Source of the DNA: a virus
Lineage: Duplodnaviria; Heunggongvirae; Uroviricota; Caudoviricetes
Virus record (IMG/VR): IMGVR_UViG_2737471845_000005
Direction: 5' to 3' (one strand)
DNA length: 30,396 nucleotides
Part shown: positions 24,001-30,000 of the stretch, in pieces
Layout of the letters: every line of letters begins with the position of its first letter
Numbering within the stretch: the stretch's first letter is position 1
Position numbers: made by a program

Positions 24001-27000
24001 CGTATATCAGGGCTGTATCGCAACGACTGGGAGTGGATCCCCGGGTTGCCCTGAATATGAGCGATCCGCAAACCATGTCAGCATTGATGAGCAGCATTAT
24101 CCAGCATGAGAATGGAAGAAATATCTATTCTCGAGAGCTGATTAATAAGGCTGCCGTGGCGGGAATTAGTGGCAAAGTGACAGAGGTTAACCAGCAAAAT
24201 ACCTACCACATTTACGGTGGCGGAGATCCGCACGCTGTCGGTAATGAGGTTGCACGTCGGCAACAGTCTGCAAATGCTCAGGTCATGCGAAGTAATCAGG
24301 TGAGGGTGGGTTAGTGGATATTCTCTCTACACTTTTTCATCAGCAGAGCAGAAAAATAGGAATGATTGTTCCCAGTGTTGTTATTTCAGAGAAGCATACA
24401 GATATGCTTGAAATAACAGAGCATCCGGTAGAGGTCGGGGCCGCTGTCGCTGATCATGCCTATAAAAAACCGTCAGAAGTGGTGATGGAGGTTGGTTTTG
24501 CCGGTGGCGGCGCATTGCTGGATTTTGCCAGTAACCTGACGGCTATCAGCCTGCTCGGCCTGAGTCCTCAGCAGACGTATCAGGAGCTACTGGGTCTGCA
24601 GGAAAGCCGTATCCCCTTCGATGTGGTAAGCGGTAAACGGCTGTACAGCAACATGTTGATCCGGGCGCTGGAAGTGACGACGGACAAGACAACCGAAAAC
24701 GTCCTGTCCGCCGTCCTCACCCTGAGGGAGGTCATTATCTCCCGGACACAGCAGATTACCGTCGCGGATAAAACCAACATGAAGGAAGGGGCCAGCACGT
24801 CGGCGGTACAGAACAGCGGCAACAAAACCACAAAGCCTCCAGATACTTCACTGCTGAAAAGCATCACGGGTAACGTGGCGTCATTACTGGGGGGCGGCTA
24901 ATGACAATTCAGGAAATTCCGCTGACAGCGGACAACCAGCAGTTCAGCATCGTCCTGGGTGGTGTCACCTGGCGGATTAGCATCATATGGCGCGATCTGT
25001 ACTGGATTATGGACCTGCAGAACGACAGAGGGAAGCCGGTAATCTCCGGTATTCCTCTCGTCACTGGTGCTGACCTGCTGGCGCAGTACGCCTGTATGGG
25101 GCTTGGTTTTAAGCTGGTGGTGGTCTGTGATGACAACACACAGGATTACCCCACAAAAACTGACCTGGGCGGTCGCAGCCATTTACTGGTATCAACGGAG
25201 TAAGCATGTCACAGAACTGGATGAGACATTTCGAGCTGCAGCTTGTGGACGGGAACGGTCAGGGAATTGAGCTAAGTGATTTCAAAGTCACCTTTACGAT
25301 CGACTGGTTCAACATCAGCAGCGCGTCCCGGGTAGGGACTATCAAAATTTATAACCTCTCGGCAGATACTGTGAACCGAATTACCGGGCAGGAGTTTTCG
25401 AAAGTGCGTCTGATTGCCGGTTACGACGGTATCGCGCCGGAGGTGTCGGCAAGCGATGTCGGGACCGTGCGCGAAGTCGACGCGGCGGACGTGGGCCAGA
25501 GCGATGGCCGCAACTACGGACTGATTTTCAGCGGTGAAATTCGCTACTCGGTCACAGGAAAAGACAGTCCGGTTGATACCTACGTCCTGATTCAGGCAGC
25601 AGATACTGATCTGGCTTTTGCTACCAGTATAACCTCACAGACGCTGGCTGCCGGTTACACGGTCGCTGATGTGAACCGTGCGCTGATGAAAGACTTCGAA
25701 GCCAAAGGCGCGACCGAAGGCCTGACGCCTGAAATGCCTGCTACTGTATTCCCCCGGGGGCGGGTGCTCTTTGGCATGACGCGGCATCTTATGGATAACG
25801 TAGCCGGGCAATGTGGCGCAACATGGCAATTCGTGGACGGTCAACGCCAGATGGTGGCGAATAACGAATATGTTCATGAAGCGATTGTGCTCAACAGCGC
25901 TACCGGGCTTATTGGCATGCCGCAGCAAACTATCGGTAACGGCGTAAACGTCCGCGCGCTTATTAATCCGAACATCCGGGTTAACGGACTCATTCAGCTG
26001 GATCAGGCTTCCGTGTATCGTACCGCCTTGTCGAACAACGATATTGCGATGGCTGGTGGTCAGATCACCGACCAGAACACGGATGGAAATATCACGCTAA
26101 GCGGCACCACATCGCAGCCTGCCAGCATCGCAACGGATGGCGTTTATATTGTGCGCGGTATTATGTACACTGGCGACACAAGGGGCCAGGCGTGGTACAT
26201 GGATATGATGTGCTTTGCTCGAGGTGCTAGTGATATTCCTAGCCAGTCAGCGATGAATCGAGGTGCATAATAGTGAGCAGGCTTGCGATAACCACAATCG
26301 TATTTTCTCTTTTTTTAACTTCATGTAGTTGGGATCCTAATGGTGCTAAAGCGCAGGAAAAATGGCTATCCCAAAAAAATGAAGAAAAACAAGCGTACGA
26401 TAAGCAAGTTGAGGAGAGCCAGAAAAGCAGGCTTCAAATACAGCGCGAAGAAAAGTCTCAATTTGAAGTTTCACATCCAGAGGTTATCGTTGCTGGTGTT
26501 GGGAACGAGCTTAAAAGTAAAGGTGCAGAATCTTTGCGAGATGCGTACAACAGCATTCCATTCGTAACTCGTTATCCGGGAACCACGGACCCTAACAAAG
26601 TTTATACCTATGTCGGTGACTACAAATTAAATTTGCAACTGGTTAACACATCTGTGCTTTCTCAGATCTCAGATTGCAAACGCATTTCAGCGTATGCCGA
26701 TGTTGATATTAATCGTACTTGCTTCAATCAAATTGGAAATGATTTGAGTTTGTTTGCATCTGTAATTAAAGACAAAAATATTACTGGAATTGCAAAAAAA
26801 GCAGCTCTACGAGATTCAACTTACGGAACCAAAATTGATTTTGGTCATGCTGCGCGTTTAGCAAAAATGCATGCCACTTTATGCCAAAAGCAGGGCGGTA
26901 AAGGATTTGTCAAAATGTCGACTGTAGCTGTGCCTTGCGGCTCTTCAGGCGATGTAATTAACTATCGAAGCGCCGGTAAGATGGGGCTTATAAACTGAAA

Positions 27001-30000
27001 AGATCAAATTAGTCACATAAAACCCGCCGGATGGCGGGTTTTTTGCTTTCTGGAGCCTACTAAATGGCAGTATCTGACCAGACCCGCAGCGGCGACCTTG
27101 CCGAAACATTCAAATCTGAACGGGAAACAACAAAGAACCAGATCCGTGTCGCCTTGCCTGGCATTATTCAGTCATTCGTTCCTGATGCGGTGACGGCAGT
27201 TGTGCAGCCTGCTATCCGTTCGGTTGAAAAGGATAATGACGGCAACCGCATTACCCAAAATTACCCATTGCTGGTGGATGTACCAGTGGTATTCCCGCGC
27301 GGCGGAGGCTGTACGTTGACTTTTCCGGTAAAAGCCGGGGATGAGTGTCTTGTCGTTTTTGCCGATCGTTGTATTGATTTCTGGTGGCAGAGTGGCGGGA
27401 TACAGGAGCCAGTCGATGACAGAATGCATGATTTATCGGATGCGTTTTGTATTGTCGGTCCCCAGTCGCAGGCGAGGAAGATTAGCTGTATTAATACCAG
27501 TGCCACACAGTTGCGTAGTGACGACGGCAGCACCTATTTTGAGCTTAATCCTGATACCAGGAAAATTAAAATTGTCGCTCCGGGTGGTCTTGATGTGGTT
27601 GCCCCTCTGGCTGATTTTTCTGAGAAAGTAACCATTCATGGCCTGTTAACCTGGATGGGGGGCATGGTGGGGTCTGTTGTTTCTGGTGTGGCCTCAAAAA
27701 TCACTGGTGCTGTTGAGTTTTTGGGGAGCGTGAAGGCTAACGGCAAGCCAATCGATGATACGCACACTCATGGTGGTGTTCAGCGCGGTGGAAGCAATAC
27801 CGATGGGGTAAACTGATGCGATACAGACGTGAAGACGCCGATGGCGATTACACCTTTGGCAGCGGTGATGACACCTGGCTGATTAACTCGCCTGAGGCCG
27901 TAGCACAGGCTGTGAAAACGCGATTCGAATTGTGGTATGGGCAATGGTTTCTCGACACCACCGAAGGGACTCCGTGGATCCAGTCCGTGCTCGGTAAGCA
28001 GAAGCCGGAAACCTACAACCTGGCGATCCGTAAGCGCATCCTCGAAACGCGGGGCGTTAAATCAATCCTCTCTTTCAATACGACGGTGGATACCACGACC
28101 CGACGTGTCATGTTTTCCGCTGAAATCGACACTCTCTATGGAATAACGACTGTTAAATCGGAGGCGTAATGGCTCTGAACCTTGATTCTCTCGGTTTATC
28201 TGCAAAGGTAACCGCGGAGGGGATCAGTGCGCCTGATTATCAGACGATACTCAGCACCCTGATTAGCTATTTTCAGCAGATTTATGGCAGTGATGCCTAC
28301 CTCGAACCGGACAGCAAAGACGGCCAGATGGTGGCTCTGATGGCGCTGGCGATTCATGATGCCAATAATATGGCGATAACTGTCTACAACTGTTTTTCAC
28401 CGGCAACCGGCTATGGGGCTGCACTGACCAGTAACGTGAAAATAAATGGTATTTCACGTAAAGGCGCGACGAACTCTACGGTTGATTTGCTTCTTGCAGG
28501 AACTGCCGGAACAACCATCATTAATGGCAGCGTGAAAGACAGTAATAATGTGATATGGCGTTTGCCTGCTTCAGTAGTGGTCGGCGTGGATGGTACAGTG
28601 ATGGCGACCGCAACATGTTCCGTCAGTGGTGCAGTGGCGGCGCTGGCTGGAACTATCACTGAAATTAATACGCCAACCCGTGGCTGGGTTTCGGTAACTA
28701 ATCCTGCTGCGGCTACTGTGGGCACTCCGGCAGAAACTGACGCGGAGTTACGTATCCGTCAGTCGCAAAGTGTTGCGTTGCCATCAATAACCCCATTTGA
28801 AGCACTGGATGGTGCTGTTTCTAATGTTACCGGTGTAACCCGCCACAAACTCTATGAAAACGATACTGGTTCGGAGGACGGTAACGGGTTACCGCCACAC
28901 TCTGTTGCTGTAATTGTGGATGGCGGTGATGTGACGGATATTGCTCAGGCTATCAGAGGGAATAAAGGCCAGGGGACAGCCACTCACGGTACAACATCCG
29001 TTACGGTTCCGGATAAATACGGCAATCCCCATGTAATCAAATTCTCGCGTTCCAGTGATGTGCCTGTTTATGCCCGGATTAAATTAAAAGTTTTTACGGG
29101 TTATACCTCACAGATAGGGCAGCAGATCCAGCAGGCTATTTCCGACTATATCAATAGTCTGATGATTGGTGATTCGGTCCTTTTAAGTCGCATTTACTCA
29201 CCGGCGAATCTTGGCGTGGTGAGTGGCGGGAATGCACGCTATTACGATATTCAGGAACTGACGATTGGTAAATCCCCGGGGGCTTTGTCGTCATCAAACA
29301 TTGATATCAGATACAACGAATCTGCGTCCTGTACCCCGGAAAATATCGTTATAACGGTGGAGTCATGAGCAAATACACCGAACTAATCACGAACTACCAC
29401 GCCACCAAACCTAAATTTCTTGCACATGTTGATCTGATGACCCGGCCGCTTATTGATGTTGCGGCTGCCACCAGAGGGCTGATTACTGCATTTGATATTG
29501 ACTCTGCGGTTGGTGTGCAACTTGACATTCTGGGATTGTGGATCGGACGTAGCCGTGTTGTCAGCCAGCCTATCTCAGGTGTCTATTTCAGTTGGGATAC
29601 CGACGGGCTTGGATATGATCAGGGTGTATGGCAGGGACCATACGATCCTGATTCAGGATGCATGTATCTCAGCGATGAAACTTATCGTGTCATTCTTAAA
29701 GCGAAGATTGCGATTAATAACTGGGACGGACGGAATGATTCGCTTCCGGCAATTCTTGATGCGGCAACAGCAGGATCCGGGCTACGAATGCAGATAGTCG
29801 ATAACCAGGACATGACGATATCGGTCTGGGTCTTTCCTGATACTGATATTTCAGATGTATCGCGTGAGTTAATTGCGGCAATTAAACAGGGGTATCTCAC
29901 AGTAAAAGCCGCCGGGGTATGGGCGGGTGGCATTGAAACACCTTCTGTGGAAACCCCATCGGAAGGTTCAAAATTTTTTGGTTTTGATATGGATAACGAA

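What the first reader, a model, noticed from the sequence alone, without database searches (positions are those of the whole stretch)
26273..27047. Lipoprotein moron with its own terminator inserted in the tail gene module
A 241-aa AT-rich ORF with a clear lipoprotein signal ('...FSLFLTSC') lies between a tail gene and the baseplate V-like gene and is followed by a strong intrinsic terminator, unlike the translationally coupled structural genes around it. Small lipoproteins at comparable positions in other phages (Cor, Llp) mediate superinfection exclusion by blocking outer-membrane receptors, though this protein is larger and I recognise no homology to them.
Basis: partly seen in the sequence, partly recalled or inferred. 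Interest (0 to 1): 0.6.

Follow-up and report, generated by a model that had tools for sequence, protein, structure and literature searches.

The report
Orphan prophage lipoprotein in baseplate slot
A real but uncharacterised exported lipoprotein gene sits in a swappable slot between two baseplate genes of an E. coli prophage, where it replaces a different secreted protein found in most relatives; it probably blocks phage entry at the cell envelope, but that has not been tested.

Summary
ORF 26273-26998 (+, GTG, 241 aa) has a rule-passing lipobox (LTSC, Cys18), low GC (0.41 against 0.53 in the flanks), lies between baseplate hub and spike genes, and is followed by the best terminator-like hairpin in the region.

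Two details are wrong. The terminator is not the gene's own: the same stem lies in front of the spike gene in nearly all related phages, whatever the cargo. The gene also starts 2 nt after the hub stop, with no convincing promoter.

The hub-spike junction is a two-part slot. The first position normally holds an unrelated ~112-aa secreted protein (472 clusters). The lipoprotein (15 clusters; 12 of 5,426 E. coli genomes) is a rare alternative. All 41 fetched loci with a homolog have it in this position. It is under purifying selection (dN/dS about 0.1) and moves between backbones.

The model (pLDDT 96) is a 46-residue helix plus a 175-residue domain with four conserved Cys. No Pfam, NCBIfam, PADLOC or PDB match was found, including Llp and Spackle. 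It does not track fibre, spike-tip or tape-measure variants.

Best reading: an outer-membrane-anchored periplasmic binding protein that blocks phage entry (confidence 0.42). Moderate interest.

The parts
25206..26270 (+). Baseplate hub gene. Its last ~20 codons (from about 26213) already belong to the diverged cassette border.
   Evidence: phrog_196 at 8e-88; PF22759 below its cutoff. Homology to relatives breaks after ...ATGATGTGC near 26213 (alignment A1).
26260..26263 (+). GAGG Shine-Dalgarno-like motif inside the end of the hub gene, 9 nt before the GTG start.
   Evidence: Read directly from the sequence.
26273..26326 (+). Lipoprotein signal peptide (residues 1-17) and the lipid-modified Cys18 (codon 26324-26326). 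Lipobox is LTSC; Ser at +2.
   Evidence: The lipobox rule is passed. Cys18 is invariant in alignment A3. No member has Asp at +2.
26336..26473 (+). Charged E/K/Q-rich helix (residues 22-67), read as a stalk between the lipid anchor and the globular domain.
   Evidence: The AF2 model has a helix at 22-67 with block pLDDT 67-94. Its length is nearly free of indels among short-form homologs. dN/dS is about 0.2.
26474..26995 (+). Globular alpha/beta domain (residues 68-241) with four conserved Cys (135, 150, 204, 222) and motifs HPEV, FVTR, CKRxSAY and FGHAARLAKMH.
26996..26998 (+). Stop codon (TGA).
27019..27052 (+). Intrinsic-terminator-like hairpin (27019-27042) and T-rich tail. A conserved backbone element at the 3' edge of the slot, not specific to this gene.
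   Evidence: Best hit in the scan. The same stem is found with different cargo and in distant phages.
27064..27816 (+). Membrane-puncturing spike gene (gpV-like), the downstream border of the slot.
   Evidence: PF18352 at 2.4e-43; PF18946 Apex motif at 1e-4.

Best explanation
The ORF encodes an accessory protein that is not part of the virion. It occupies the first position of a conserved variable slot between the baseplate hub and spike genes of a SEN34/Brunovirus-type phage (lambda-like regulation, contractile tail).

Shown here: it is a real gene under purifying selection. It has a family-wide lipoprotein signal without an inner-membrane retention residue. It is confined to this slot. It alternates with an unrelated secreted protein. 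It abuts the hub gene with no convincing promoter of its own.

[quoted passage not shown] There a ~46-residue helix would hold a 175-residue domain, probably disulfide-stabilised, in the periplasm.

No catalytic-looking residue is conserved across the wider family, so it most likely acts by binding. The most likely role is to block phage entry at the envelope. That could mean superinfection exclusion, or protecting progeny from wasteful adsorption to the lysing cell. The target is unresolved. Because the gene does not co-vary strictly with fibre, spike-tip or tape-measure variants, a conserved host envelope component, or an invariant part of the tail tip, is more likely than an allele-specific phage partner.
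For: - Lipobox and its conservation, including the long forms.
- Four conserved Cys beyond the lipid Cys, which fits an oxidising periplasm.
- Confident model of a helix plus a globular domain.
- The His/Glu motifs are lost in distant members, so a binding role is favoured over catalysis.
- All 41 fetched loci with a homolog place it hub -> X -> spike.
- The position is otherwise filled by another exported protein in all 12 relatives inspected, including a Klebsiella phage. The two families are unrelated (hhalign probability 3.7%).
- Accessory behaviour: present in 12 of 5,426 E. coli genomes against 352 with the backbone. dS is decoupled from the flanks (L019: 0.07 against 0.45 for the hub and 1.08 for the spike).
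- A Q-family antiterminator is present in the window, so by lambda precedent late transcription should read through the slot terminator.
- A separate, complete lysis cassette with Rz/Rz1-like spanins excludes a spanin role.
- Precedents: lipoproteins in structural gene clusters of mEpimmI coliphages shown to exclude phages (PMC11893012); T5 Llp is an outer-membrane lipoprotein acting from the periplasmic face of FhuA (PMC9586334); HK97 gp15 is an exclusion gene inside a tail operon (PMC3594210).
Against: - There is no functional data of any kind.
- No homology or fold similarity to any known exclusion protein.
- No match in PADLOC.
- The mature protein is about 223 aa, against 61 modelled residues for Llp (PMC9586334).
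- It is not linked to a receptor-binding protein type: the same gene occurs with three fibre modules.
- No convincing promoter was found, so expression in the lysogen, which classical prophage-mediated exclusion needs, is unsupported.
- Tight coupling to the hub gene would also fit a role in the phage's own late cycle.
Confidence: 0.42

Rival explanations
1. Spackle-like inhibitor of the incoming tail's periplasmic penetration machinery. The stalked periplasmic domain would bind the muralytic C-terminal module of the tape-measure protein, or the spike of a superinfecting sibling phage, and stop wall penetration or DNA ejection after adsorption.
For: - The tape-measure C-terminus (window 23700-24311) matches a solved 'Endolysin' chain (7q47_A, E 1.3e-13) and a phage Gp29 chain (9vvp_L, E 1.8e-20). 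So this tail carries a wall-degrading domain into the compartment where the lipoprotein would sit.
- Across 21 loci, lipoprotein-domain divergence tracks that module best (Spearman rho 0.80, against 0.62 for the adjacent hub gene).
- The family is confined to this tail lineage.
- T4 Spackle is a periplasmic protein that inhibits the gp5 tail lysozyme (PMC7677548).
Against: - L019 has a 98% identical lipoprotein but an SLT-type tape-measure C-terminus (ESGGN..GLFQF..YNWG) instead of the endolysin-like one.
- Phage 689R2 has a 100% identical muralytic module but carries the 112-aa protein instead.
- L014 combines the same lipoprotein with a different spike C-terminus.
- The correlation rests on a sample dominated by one E. 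coli cluster.
- There is no fold or sequence similarity to Spackle.
Confidence: 0.15
2. Lysogenic-conversion factor that benefits the host and is unrelated to phages. This would be an outer-membrane lipoprotein that changes serum resistance, adhesion or envelope robustness, as lambda Bor and Lom do.
For: - It is an exported lipoprotein carried as low-GC, exchangeable cargo in a prophage.
- Carriers include human clinical and animal isolates.
- Moron-encoded envelope proteins with host benefits are well known (PMC3594210).
Against: - The family is found only in this one slot of one tail lineage (all 41 fetched loci), not in other phage types, plasmids or chromosomal islands. Only 36 representatives exist among 1.84 billion. 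General host-benefit cargo would be expected to spread more widely.
- No convincing promoter for expression in the lysogen.
- It is rare: 12 of 5,426 genomes.
Confidence: 0.12
3. Helper for the phage's own late cycle in the envelope. This would be a periplasmic or outer-membrane factor made together with baseplate proteins that aids lysis or egress, or conditions the envelope, and is not an exclusion factor.
For: - The start codon lies 2 nt after the hub stop, with no convincing promoter. All homologs, and the alternative 112-aa protein, also abut the hub gene.
- In every relative inspected the first slot position holds some exported protein, which suggests a quasi-required function.
Against: - A complete holin, endolysin, Rz-like and Rz1-like cassette exists elsewhere in the window.
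- Two unrelated families fill the position and are exchanged freely, which is typical of accessory and not essential functions.
- I know of no precedent for such a helper (my own knowledge).
Confidence: 0.12
4. Virion or tail-assembly component, meaning an ordinary structural gene of the baseplate module.
For: Its location in the middle of the baseplate genes and its tight packing against the hub gene.
Against: - A cleavable lipoprotein signal would send it out of the cytoplasm, where tails are assembled.
- Phages with 97-100% identical baseplate genes lack it entirely.
- Its GC and dS histories differ from the flanks.
- There is no homolog in 50,697 deposited phage genomes.
Confidence: 0.03

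Closest known systems
T5 Llp and the Cor lipoproteins (T1, phi80, N15, HK022): small outer-membrane lipoproteins for superinfection exclusion (PMC9586334, PMC3594210)
   Same: A phage-encoded lipoprotein predicted to sit in the inner leaflet of the outer membrane, facing the periplasm. It contains conserved cysteines and is encoded within or next to tail genes. Its likely action is binding, not catalysis.
   Different: No sequence or fold similarity. The mature protein is about 223 aa with a long helical stalk, against 61 modelled residues for Llp. It is not adjacent to, or co-inherited with, a receptor-binding protein. The target is unknown and FhuA involvement is untested.
Type A and C Lpp exclusion lipoproteins of mEpimmI coliphages (PMC11893012)
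   Same: Lipoprotein genes inside the structural gene cluster of temperate coliphages. Several alternative sequence types occupy the locus in different phages.
   Different: Those phages have no baseplate (the paper never uses the term) and a J-type receptor-recognition protein. There, the lipoprotein type follows the outer-membrane receptor used (OmpA or LamB), and function was shown by expression assays. Here the gene shows no link to fibre type and nothing has been tested.
T4 Spackle (gp61.3) (PMC7677548)
   Same: An exported periplasmic protein from a contractile-tailed phage. The phage here also delivers a tail-borne muralytic domain, which would be a conceivable target.
   Different: Spackle is a periplasmic early-gene product (PMC7677548), and small and not lipid-anchored as far as I know. 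There is no sequence or fold similarity. The lipoprotein occurs with two different muralytic modules.
HK97 gp15 and the classical moron (PMC3594210)
   Same: An accessory gene with deviating GC content inside a tail operon. It is absent from close relatives and targeted to the envelope.
   Different: gp15 is a small inner-membrane protein in a unit with its own promoter and terminator, and it is expressed from the prophage. Here there is no convincing promoter, the terminator is shared by all cargo in the slot, and the protein is a predicted outer-membrane lipoprotein.
Rz1-type o-spanins
   Same: A phage-encoded outer-membrane lipoprotein.
   Different: O-spanins are short, proline-rich, and embedded in or next to the i-spanin gene in the lysis cassette (my own knowledge). 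The window has such a pair at 10181-10736. This protein is a large folded domain located 16 kb away, with no C-terminal membrane segment.

Membership tests
Bacterial lipoprotein (signal peptidase II substrate) | N-terminal signal with a basic n-region, an uncharged h-region and a lipobox [LVI][ASTVI][GAS]C within the first ~35 residues | tested here: met
   MSRLAITTIVFSLFLTSC passes the PROSITE-style rule. Cys18 is invariant in A3. Long-form and distant homologs also carry lipoboxes.
Bacterial lipoprotein (signal peptidase II substrate) | Actual lipidation and cleavage (globomycin sensitivity, Cys-to-Ala phenotype) and outer-membrane sorting | not testable with these tools
   Only the +2 rule can be applied. 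Ser is at +2, and no family member has Asp there. By the E. coli Lol sorting rule (established knowledge) this implies outer-membrane sorting.
Moron (Juhala/Hendrix sense; PMC3594210) | Extra DNA that is absent from closely related phages | tested here: met
   Phages and prophages with 94-98% identical flanks carry other genes at this place. The gene is in 12 genomes, against 352 with the backbone.
Moron (Juhala/Hendrix sense; PMC3594210) | [quoted passage not shown] | tested here: met
   0.41 against 0.53. The same contrast is seen in all related loci.
Moron (Juhala/Hendrix sense; PMC3594210) | Own promoter | tested here: not met
   No + strand site at the 9/12 threshold upstream. There are only four weak 8/12 matches in the last ~140 nt of the hub gene. 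The start codon lies 2 nt after the hub stop. A consensus scan cannot exclude an atypical promoter.
Moron (Juhala/Hendrix sense; PMC3594210) | Own terminator | tested here: inconclusive
   A strong terminator-like hairpin follows the gene. However, the same element precedes the spike gene with every kind of cargo and in distant phages, so it belongs to the slot and not to this gene.
Moron (Juhala/Hendrix sense; PMC3594210) | Expression from the repressed prophage | not testable with these tools
   No transcript data are available here.
Cor / Llp exclusion lipoproteins | Sequence or structural homology to Cor or Llp | tested here: not met
Cor / Llp exclusion lipoproteins | Small single-domain lipoprotein (61 residues modelled for Llp) | tested here: not met
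   The mature protein is 223 residues: a 46-residue helix plus a 175-residue domain.
Cor / Llp exclusion lipoproteins | Genetic linkage with the receptor-binding protein whose receptor it blocks | tested here: not met
   The same gene (at least 99.2% nt) occurs with three distal fibre / fibre-assembly modules, at three integration sites.
Cor / Llp exclusion lipoproteins | Blocks an outer-membrane receptor (FhuA) and excludes phages that use it | not testable with these tools
   Needs expression and plating or adsorption assays.
T4 Spackle-type inhibitor of a tail lysozyme | Homology to Spackle | tested here: not met
   No PDB sequence or fold match.
T4 Spackle-type inhibitor of a tail lysozyme | A tail-borne muralytic domain in the same phage lineage, with co-variation between inhibitor and target | tested here: inconclusive
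   The muralytic module is present and shows the highest co-divergence (rho 0.80). But there are counter-examples: L019 has an SLT-type module with a 98% identical lipoprotein, and 689R2 has an identical module without the lipoprotein.
Spanin (o-spanin or unimolecular spanin) | Short proline-rich lipoprotein paired with an i-spanin in the lysis cassette, or a lipoprotein with a C-terminal membrane segment | tested here: not met
   A separate Rz-like gene (10181-10573) and an overlapping Rz1-like ORF with lipobox LSGC (within 10392-10736) exist in the window. This protein has a folded domain and no hydrophobic C-terminus.
Known anti-phage defence systems (PADLOC-DB 2.0) | Match to a defence-protein profile | tested here: not met
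   No PADLOC family at E of 0.1 or better.

The most novel reading that the evidence does not exclude
The first position of the hub-spike slot may be a dedicated 'envelope factor' position of this whole tail lineage. Two unrelated exported proteins would then be functional analogues made together with the baseplate: the common 112-aa periplasmic protein and the rare stalked lipoprotein with a fold not seen in solved structures. Both would act on the tail's own passage through the envelope, for example by neutralising the tail tip of sibling phages or by stopping progeny from firing into the dying cell. That would define a new class of tail-module-linked periplasmic entry blockers, mechanistically distinct from receptor-jamming lipoproteins such as Llp and Cor.
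Probability: 0.2. Interest if true: 0.65.

Novelty: new variant of a known kind. Interest (0 to 1): 0.4.

Why it matters
If the protein does block phage entry, it would add a structurally new type to the short list of phage envelope-exclusion proteins: a large, stalked lipoprotein. It would also point to the much more common 112-aa secreted protein (472 clusters across Escherichia, Salmonella, Klebsiella and relatives) as a second, equally uncharacterised player at the same position.

The slot is also a well-defined hotspot. It has a fixed exported-protein position, a variable position carrying toxin-antitoxin-like and other cargo, and a conserved terminator. It lies in a prophage type present in about 6% of complete E. 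coli genomes. That makes it a convenient place to look for new exclusion and defence functions, and relevant to predicting resistance of lysogens to therapeutic phages.

If the function turns out to be ordinary or absent, the value is limited to correcting annotation, such as the 'HMG-box domain-containing protein' label.

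Tried and rejected
- Family libraries: Pfam, NCBIfam and PADLOC gave nothing for the lipoprotein. PHROGs gave only weak hits. The window protein's one match covers residues 4-65, the signal peptide and charged helix.
- Remote homology between the two families that occupy the slot was rejected (hhalign probability 3.7%).
- tblastn against 50,697 deposited phage genomes gave no match. So no cultured phage, and hence no virion proteomics, is available for this gene. The SEN34 paper has no proteomics.
- Naming by analogy failed. The 112-aa family is entirely 'hypothetical' and has no NCBIfam model.
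- Spanin role rejected, because a separate lysis cassette is present.
- Enzyme role considered unlikely. The HPEV and H-x7-H motifs are invariant among close members but lost in distant ones.
- Receptor-binding-protein pairing was tested and not found.
- Tape-measure pairing gave a suggestive correlation with clear counter-examples. The first version of that script timed out.
- PGAP's 'HMG-box' name is rejected as a compositional artefact of the charged helix. This is my inference and was not tested directly.

Full report
**1. What is in the sequence**

The window carries an ORF at 26273-26998 (+ strand, GTG start, 241 aa) that begins MSRLAITTIVFSLFLTSC. GC falls to 0.37-0.42 inside it, against 0.50-0.56 on either side.

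The gene upstream (25206-26270) is a baseplate hub (phrog_196 at 8e-88; PF22759 below its cutoff). The gene downstream (27064-27816) is a gpV-type spike (PF18352 at 2e-43, plus the Apex motif). Further neighbours are a tape-measure protein, a Dit-like protein, a Pam3-gp18-type plug, Baseplate_J and DUF2612.

A hairpin at 27019-27042 (10 pairs, 6 G-C) with a T-run is the best terminator-like site between 20000 and 30396. The N-terminus passes a PROSITE-style lipobox rule: Arg3, an uncharged core, and LTSC with Cys18. The physical observation is therefore correct.

**2. Two details of the observation do not hold**

First, the gene is not set apart from the operon at its 5' end. The GTG lies 2 nt after the hub stop codon, with GAGG 9 nt upstream.

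No promoter-like site at the standard 9/12 threshold lies upstream on the + strand. A relaxed scan finds four 8/12 matches in the last ~140 nt of the hub gene, against about 2.9 per kb across 20000-30396. That is a local excess of weak matches, but none is convincing.

Second, the terminator is not the gene's own. The same stem (AACCCGCC / GGCGGGTT plus T-run, with many different loops) sits just before the spike gene in E. coli phages, Salmonella phage SEN34 and dozens of metagenomic relatives. It is there whatever lies upstream of it, even where the hub protein is only about 60% identical.

**3. The genomic setting**

The element is a prophage with lambda-like regulation and a contractile tail of the SEN34/Brunovirus type. 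A near-identical copy in E. coli NRZ14408 has Nin genes, a Q antiterminator and a holin/lysozyme cassette, and sits next to bio/ybhB. The window itself has a Q-family gene at 6537-7343 and a complete lysis cassette. The SEN34 paper describes the same combination of lambda-like genome and myovirus morphology (PMC5261728).

**4. The hub-spike junction is a two-part variable slot**

Phages with 94-98% identical flanks carry other genes there. Among 5,426 complete E. coli genomes, 352 match the hub/spike query and about 300 show the two-piece hub-plus-spike match. More than ten slot lengths occur.

In all eight E. coli variants sampled, and in 689R2, YP3, SEN34 and Klebsiella phage Mulock, the first gene after the hub is a ~112-aa protein. 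It has a signal-peptidase-I-type leader and two invariant Cys. That family has 472 clusters, all unnamed.

After it come zero to two variable cytoplasmic genes, preceded by gaps. Examples are a YafO-type toxin, DUF4282, DUF2335 and a protein with an HExxH motif. In E2348/69 that gap holds a terminator-like hairpin and a 10/12 promoter-like site, which is the classical moron layout. The conserved terminator closes the slot.

In the window, the lipoprotein takes the first position and the second is empty. The 5' recombination border lies inside the last ~20 codons of the hub gene, and the 3' border is at the terminator.

**5. The lipoprotein family**

It is small: 15 clusters in 5.8 billion proteins and 36 representatives in 1.84 billion. 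It occurs in 12 of 5,426 E. coli genomes and in none of 50,697 deposited phage genomes. Sources include Escherichia, Citrobacter, Serratia and Limnobaculum.

Every fetched locus with a homolog (41 in total, 34 non-redundant) has it directly after the hub and before the spike. In some loci extra cargo follows it.

Long forms of 354-378 aa add an N-terminal domain but keep the lipobox. No member has Asp at +2. By the E. coli sorting rule this predicts an outer-membrane location.

dN/dS is 0.10-0.13, against 0.04-0.07 for hub and J, so the gene is functional but evolves faster. Its dS is decoupled from the flanks in both directions. In L019 it is 0.07 against 0.45 for the hub and 1.08 for the spike. 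In L022 it is saturated against 0.81 for the hub. This shows exchange of the cassette between backbones.

**6. Structure**

AlphaFold2 gives a helix spanning residues 22-67, followed by a mixed alpha/beta domain (full length: pLDDT 85.6; domain alone with 36 sequences: pLDDT 96.0, pTM 0.89).

Four Cys besides the lipid Cys are conserved (C135 and C150 invariant even among distant members; C204 and C222 nearly so). This fits two periplasmic disulfides, but I could not inspect the model coordinates.

The His/Glu motifs conserved among close members are lost in distant ones, which argues for binding and not catalysis.

**7. Mechanism**

Shown: this is a selected, exported-type, accessory gene fixed to one slot, alternating with another exported protein and packed against the hub gene.

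Inferred: it is co-transcribed with the late tail genes under Q antitermination, lipidated, sorted to the outer membrane, and holds a binding domain on a helical stalk in the periplasm.

The most likely role is an envelope-level block to phage entry. Three precedents support this. The mEpimmI structural-cluster lipoproteins exclude phages experimentally (PMC11893012). T5 Llp acts from the periplasmic face of FhuA (PMC9586334). HK97 gp15 is an exclusion gene inside a tail operon (PMC3594210).

I looked for a partner by co-variation. The same gene (at least 99.2% nt) occurs at three integration sites with three distal fibre modules, one of them pinE-invertible. That speaks against an Llp/pb5-type pairing with the receptor-binding protein.

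The tape-measure protein carries an endolysin-like C-terminal module, and its divergence tracks the lipoprotein best (rho 0.80 against 0.62 for the hub). That hints at a Spackle-like mechanism (PMC7677548).

However, there are counter-examples. L019 pairs a 98% identical lipoprotein with an SLT-type module. 689R2 has an identical module with the 112-aa protein instead. L014 has another spike C-terminus. So no phage allele is strictly linked, and a conserved host component or an invariant tail part is the more likely target.

**8. Comparison with known systems**

The protein works most like an exclusion lipoprotein but is not a member of the Cor/Llp family. Homology, size and receptor-binding-protein linkage were all tested and not met.

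It is not a classical moron: the promoter test is not met and the terminator is shared. It is not a spanin, because a separate Rz/Rz1-like pair exists. It has no Spackle homology.

I rate it a new variant of a known kind: an envelope-targeted accessory protein in a phage tail module. Its fold has no match among solved structures, and its genomic niche is unusually strict.

**9. Verdict**

Confidence in the exclusion function is about 0.42. Confidence that it is an exported accessory lipoprotein in a swappable slot is high. Interest is moderate (0.4). The gene is probably one more phage envelope factor, but the fixed 'exported protein' position shared by two unrelated families is an unexplained regularity that can be tested experimentally.

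Noticed in passing
L001 2771-3106; L002 2772-3113; L003 2777-3118; L041-L048; L049 4578-4916: A conserved ~112-aa secreted protein directly follows the hub gene in most relatives. It has a signal-peptidase-I-type leader, two invariant Cys and the motif MGLMPAKDGNNYGF...NVQLLQNSMDAPKIIGSFPCKK. The family has 472 clusters across Enterobacterales, all 'hypothetical', with no Pfam or NCBIfam model. It is unrelated to the lipoprotein.
   Followed up: partly
L043 (E. coli E2348/69) 1512-1597 and 1627-2779; L042 1676-2666; L036 5794-6790; L023 5842-6913; L025 5880-7068: The second slot position holds variable cytoplasmic cargo: a YafO-type toxin pair, an HExxH-motif protein, DUF4282, DUF2335 and others. 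In E2348/69 it is preceded by a terminator-like hairpin and a 10/12 promoter-like site, which is a classical moron layout. None of the five cargo proteins tested matched PADLOC.
   Followed up: partly
window 23700-24311 (C-terminus of the tape-measure gene 22308-24314); L019 950-3019: The tape-measure protein ends in an endolysin-like module (PDB 7q47_A at E 1.3e-13; 9vvp_L Gp29 at E 1.8e-20). In L019 the equivalent region is an SLT-type lytic transglycosylase motif instead, so this tail lineage swaps muralytic modules.
   Followed up: partly
window 5018-5193, 7376-7452, 7478-7561, 7614-8225: Rfam matches above gathering score: sok antitoxin RNA (118 bits), isrK (74 bits) and C4 antisense RNA (67 bits). 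The last two lie just upstream of an ORF6N-domain gene and downstream of the Q-like gene. To me this resembles a P1/P7-type antisense-controlled antirepressor unit.
   Followed up: no
window 9367-10736: A complete lysis cassette: holin (PF05106), a lambda-R-like endolysin (no Pfam hit), an Rz-like protein (weak DUF2570 hit), and an overlapping out-of-frame Rz1-like lipoprotein (lipobox LSGC, proline-rich).
   Followed up: partly
window 3533-4630 (- strand): A 365-aa protein of the 'Beta protein' family (PF14350, E 1e-52) is encoded on the opposite strand, in the early region.
   Followed up: no
window 26273-26998 and 27816-28169, as annotated in RefSeq genomes (H15, H18, H19; L050): PGAP names the lipoprotein 'HMG-box domain-containing protein' in some genomes, and the sheath-initiator gene 'thioredoxin domain-containing protein'. 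Both look like spurious names. The first probably comes from the charged helix.
   Followed up: no
window 26213-26270; L023 and L025 hub C-termini; L001-L003 hub C-termini: The hub C-terminus reads MMC-F-ARGA in several lipoprotein carriers but MMC-E-ARGAADL in carriers of the 112-aa protein; L036 has Leu. This may simply reflect the recombination border lying inside the hub gene, or it may be a functional link.
   Followed up: no
P0022, P0028, P0030, P0031, P0034, P0035; L027, L029, L039: Long-form homologs (354-378 aa) insert an extra ~150-residue domain (motif GGKSLC.NGC) between the lipid anchor and the conserved C-terminal domain. BFVD hit H9C1A6 (324 aa) may be one of these.
   Followed up: no
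L052 and L053 12773-15350; L009 and L050 distal ends: Carrier prophages differ at the distal tail end. Two have a pinE recombinase with inverted fibre and fibre-assembly segments (switchable host range). Two others carry acyltransferase genes next to the attachment site, which could modify surface polysaccharide.
   Followed up: no
window 27019-27042 and the equivalent sites in L001-L053: The slot terminator keeps an almost invariant stem while its loop differs freely (GGAT, ACCC, TTCG, ATCC, TCTC, ACTGA, AATGT and others). This suggests selection on the hairpin itself, across phages with about 40% protein divergence.
   Followed up: partly
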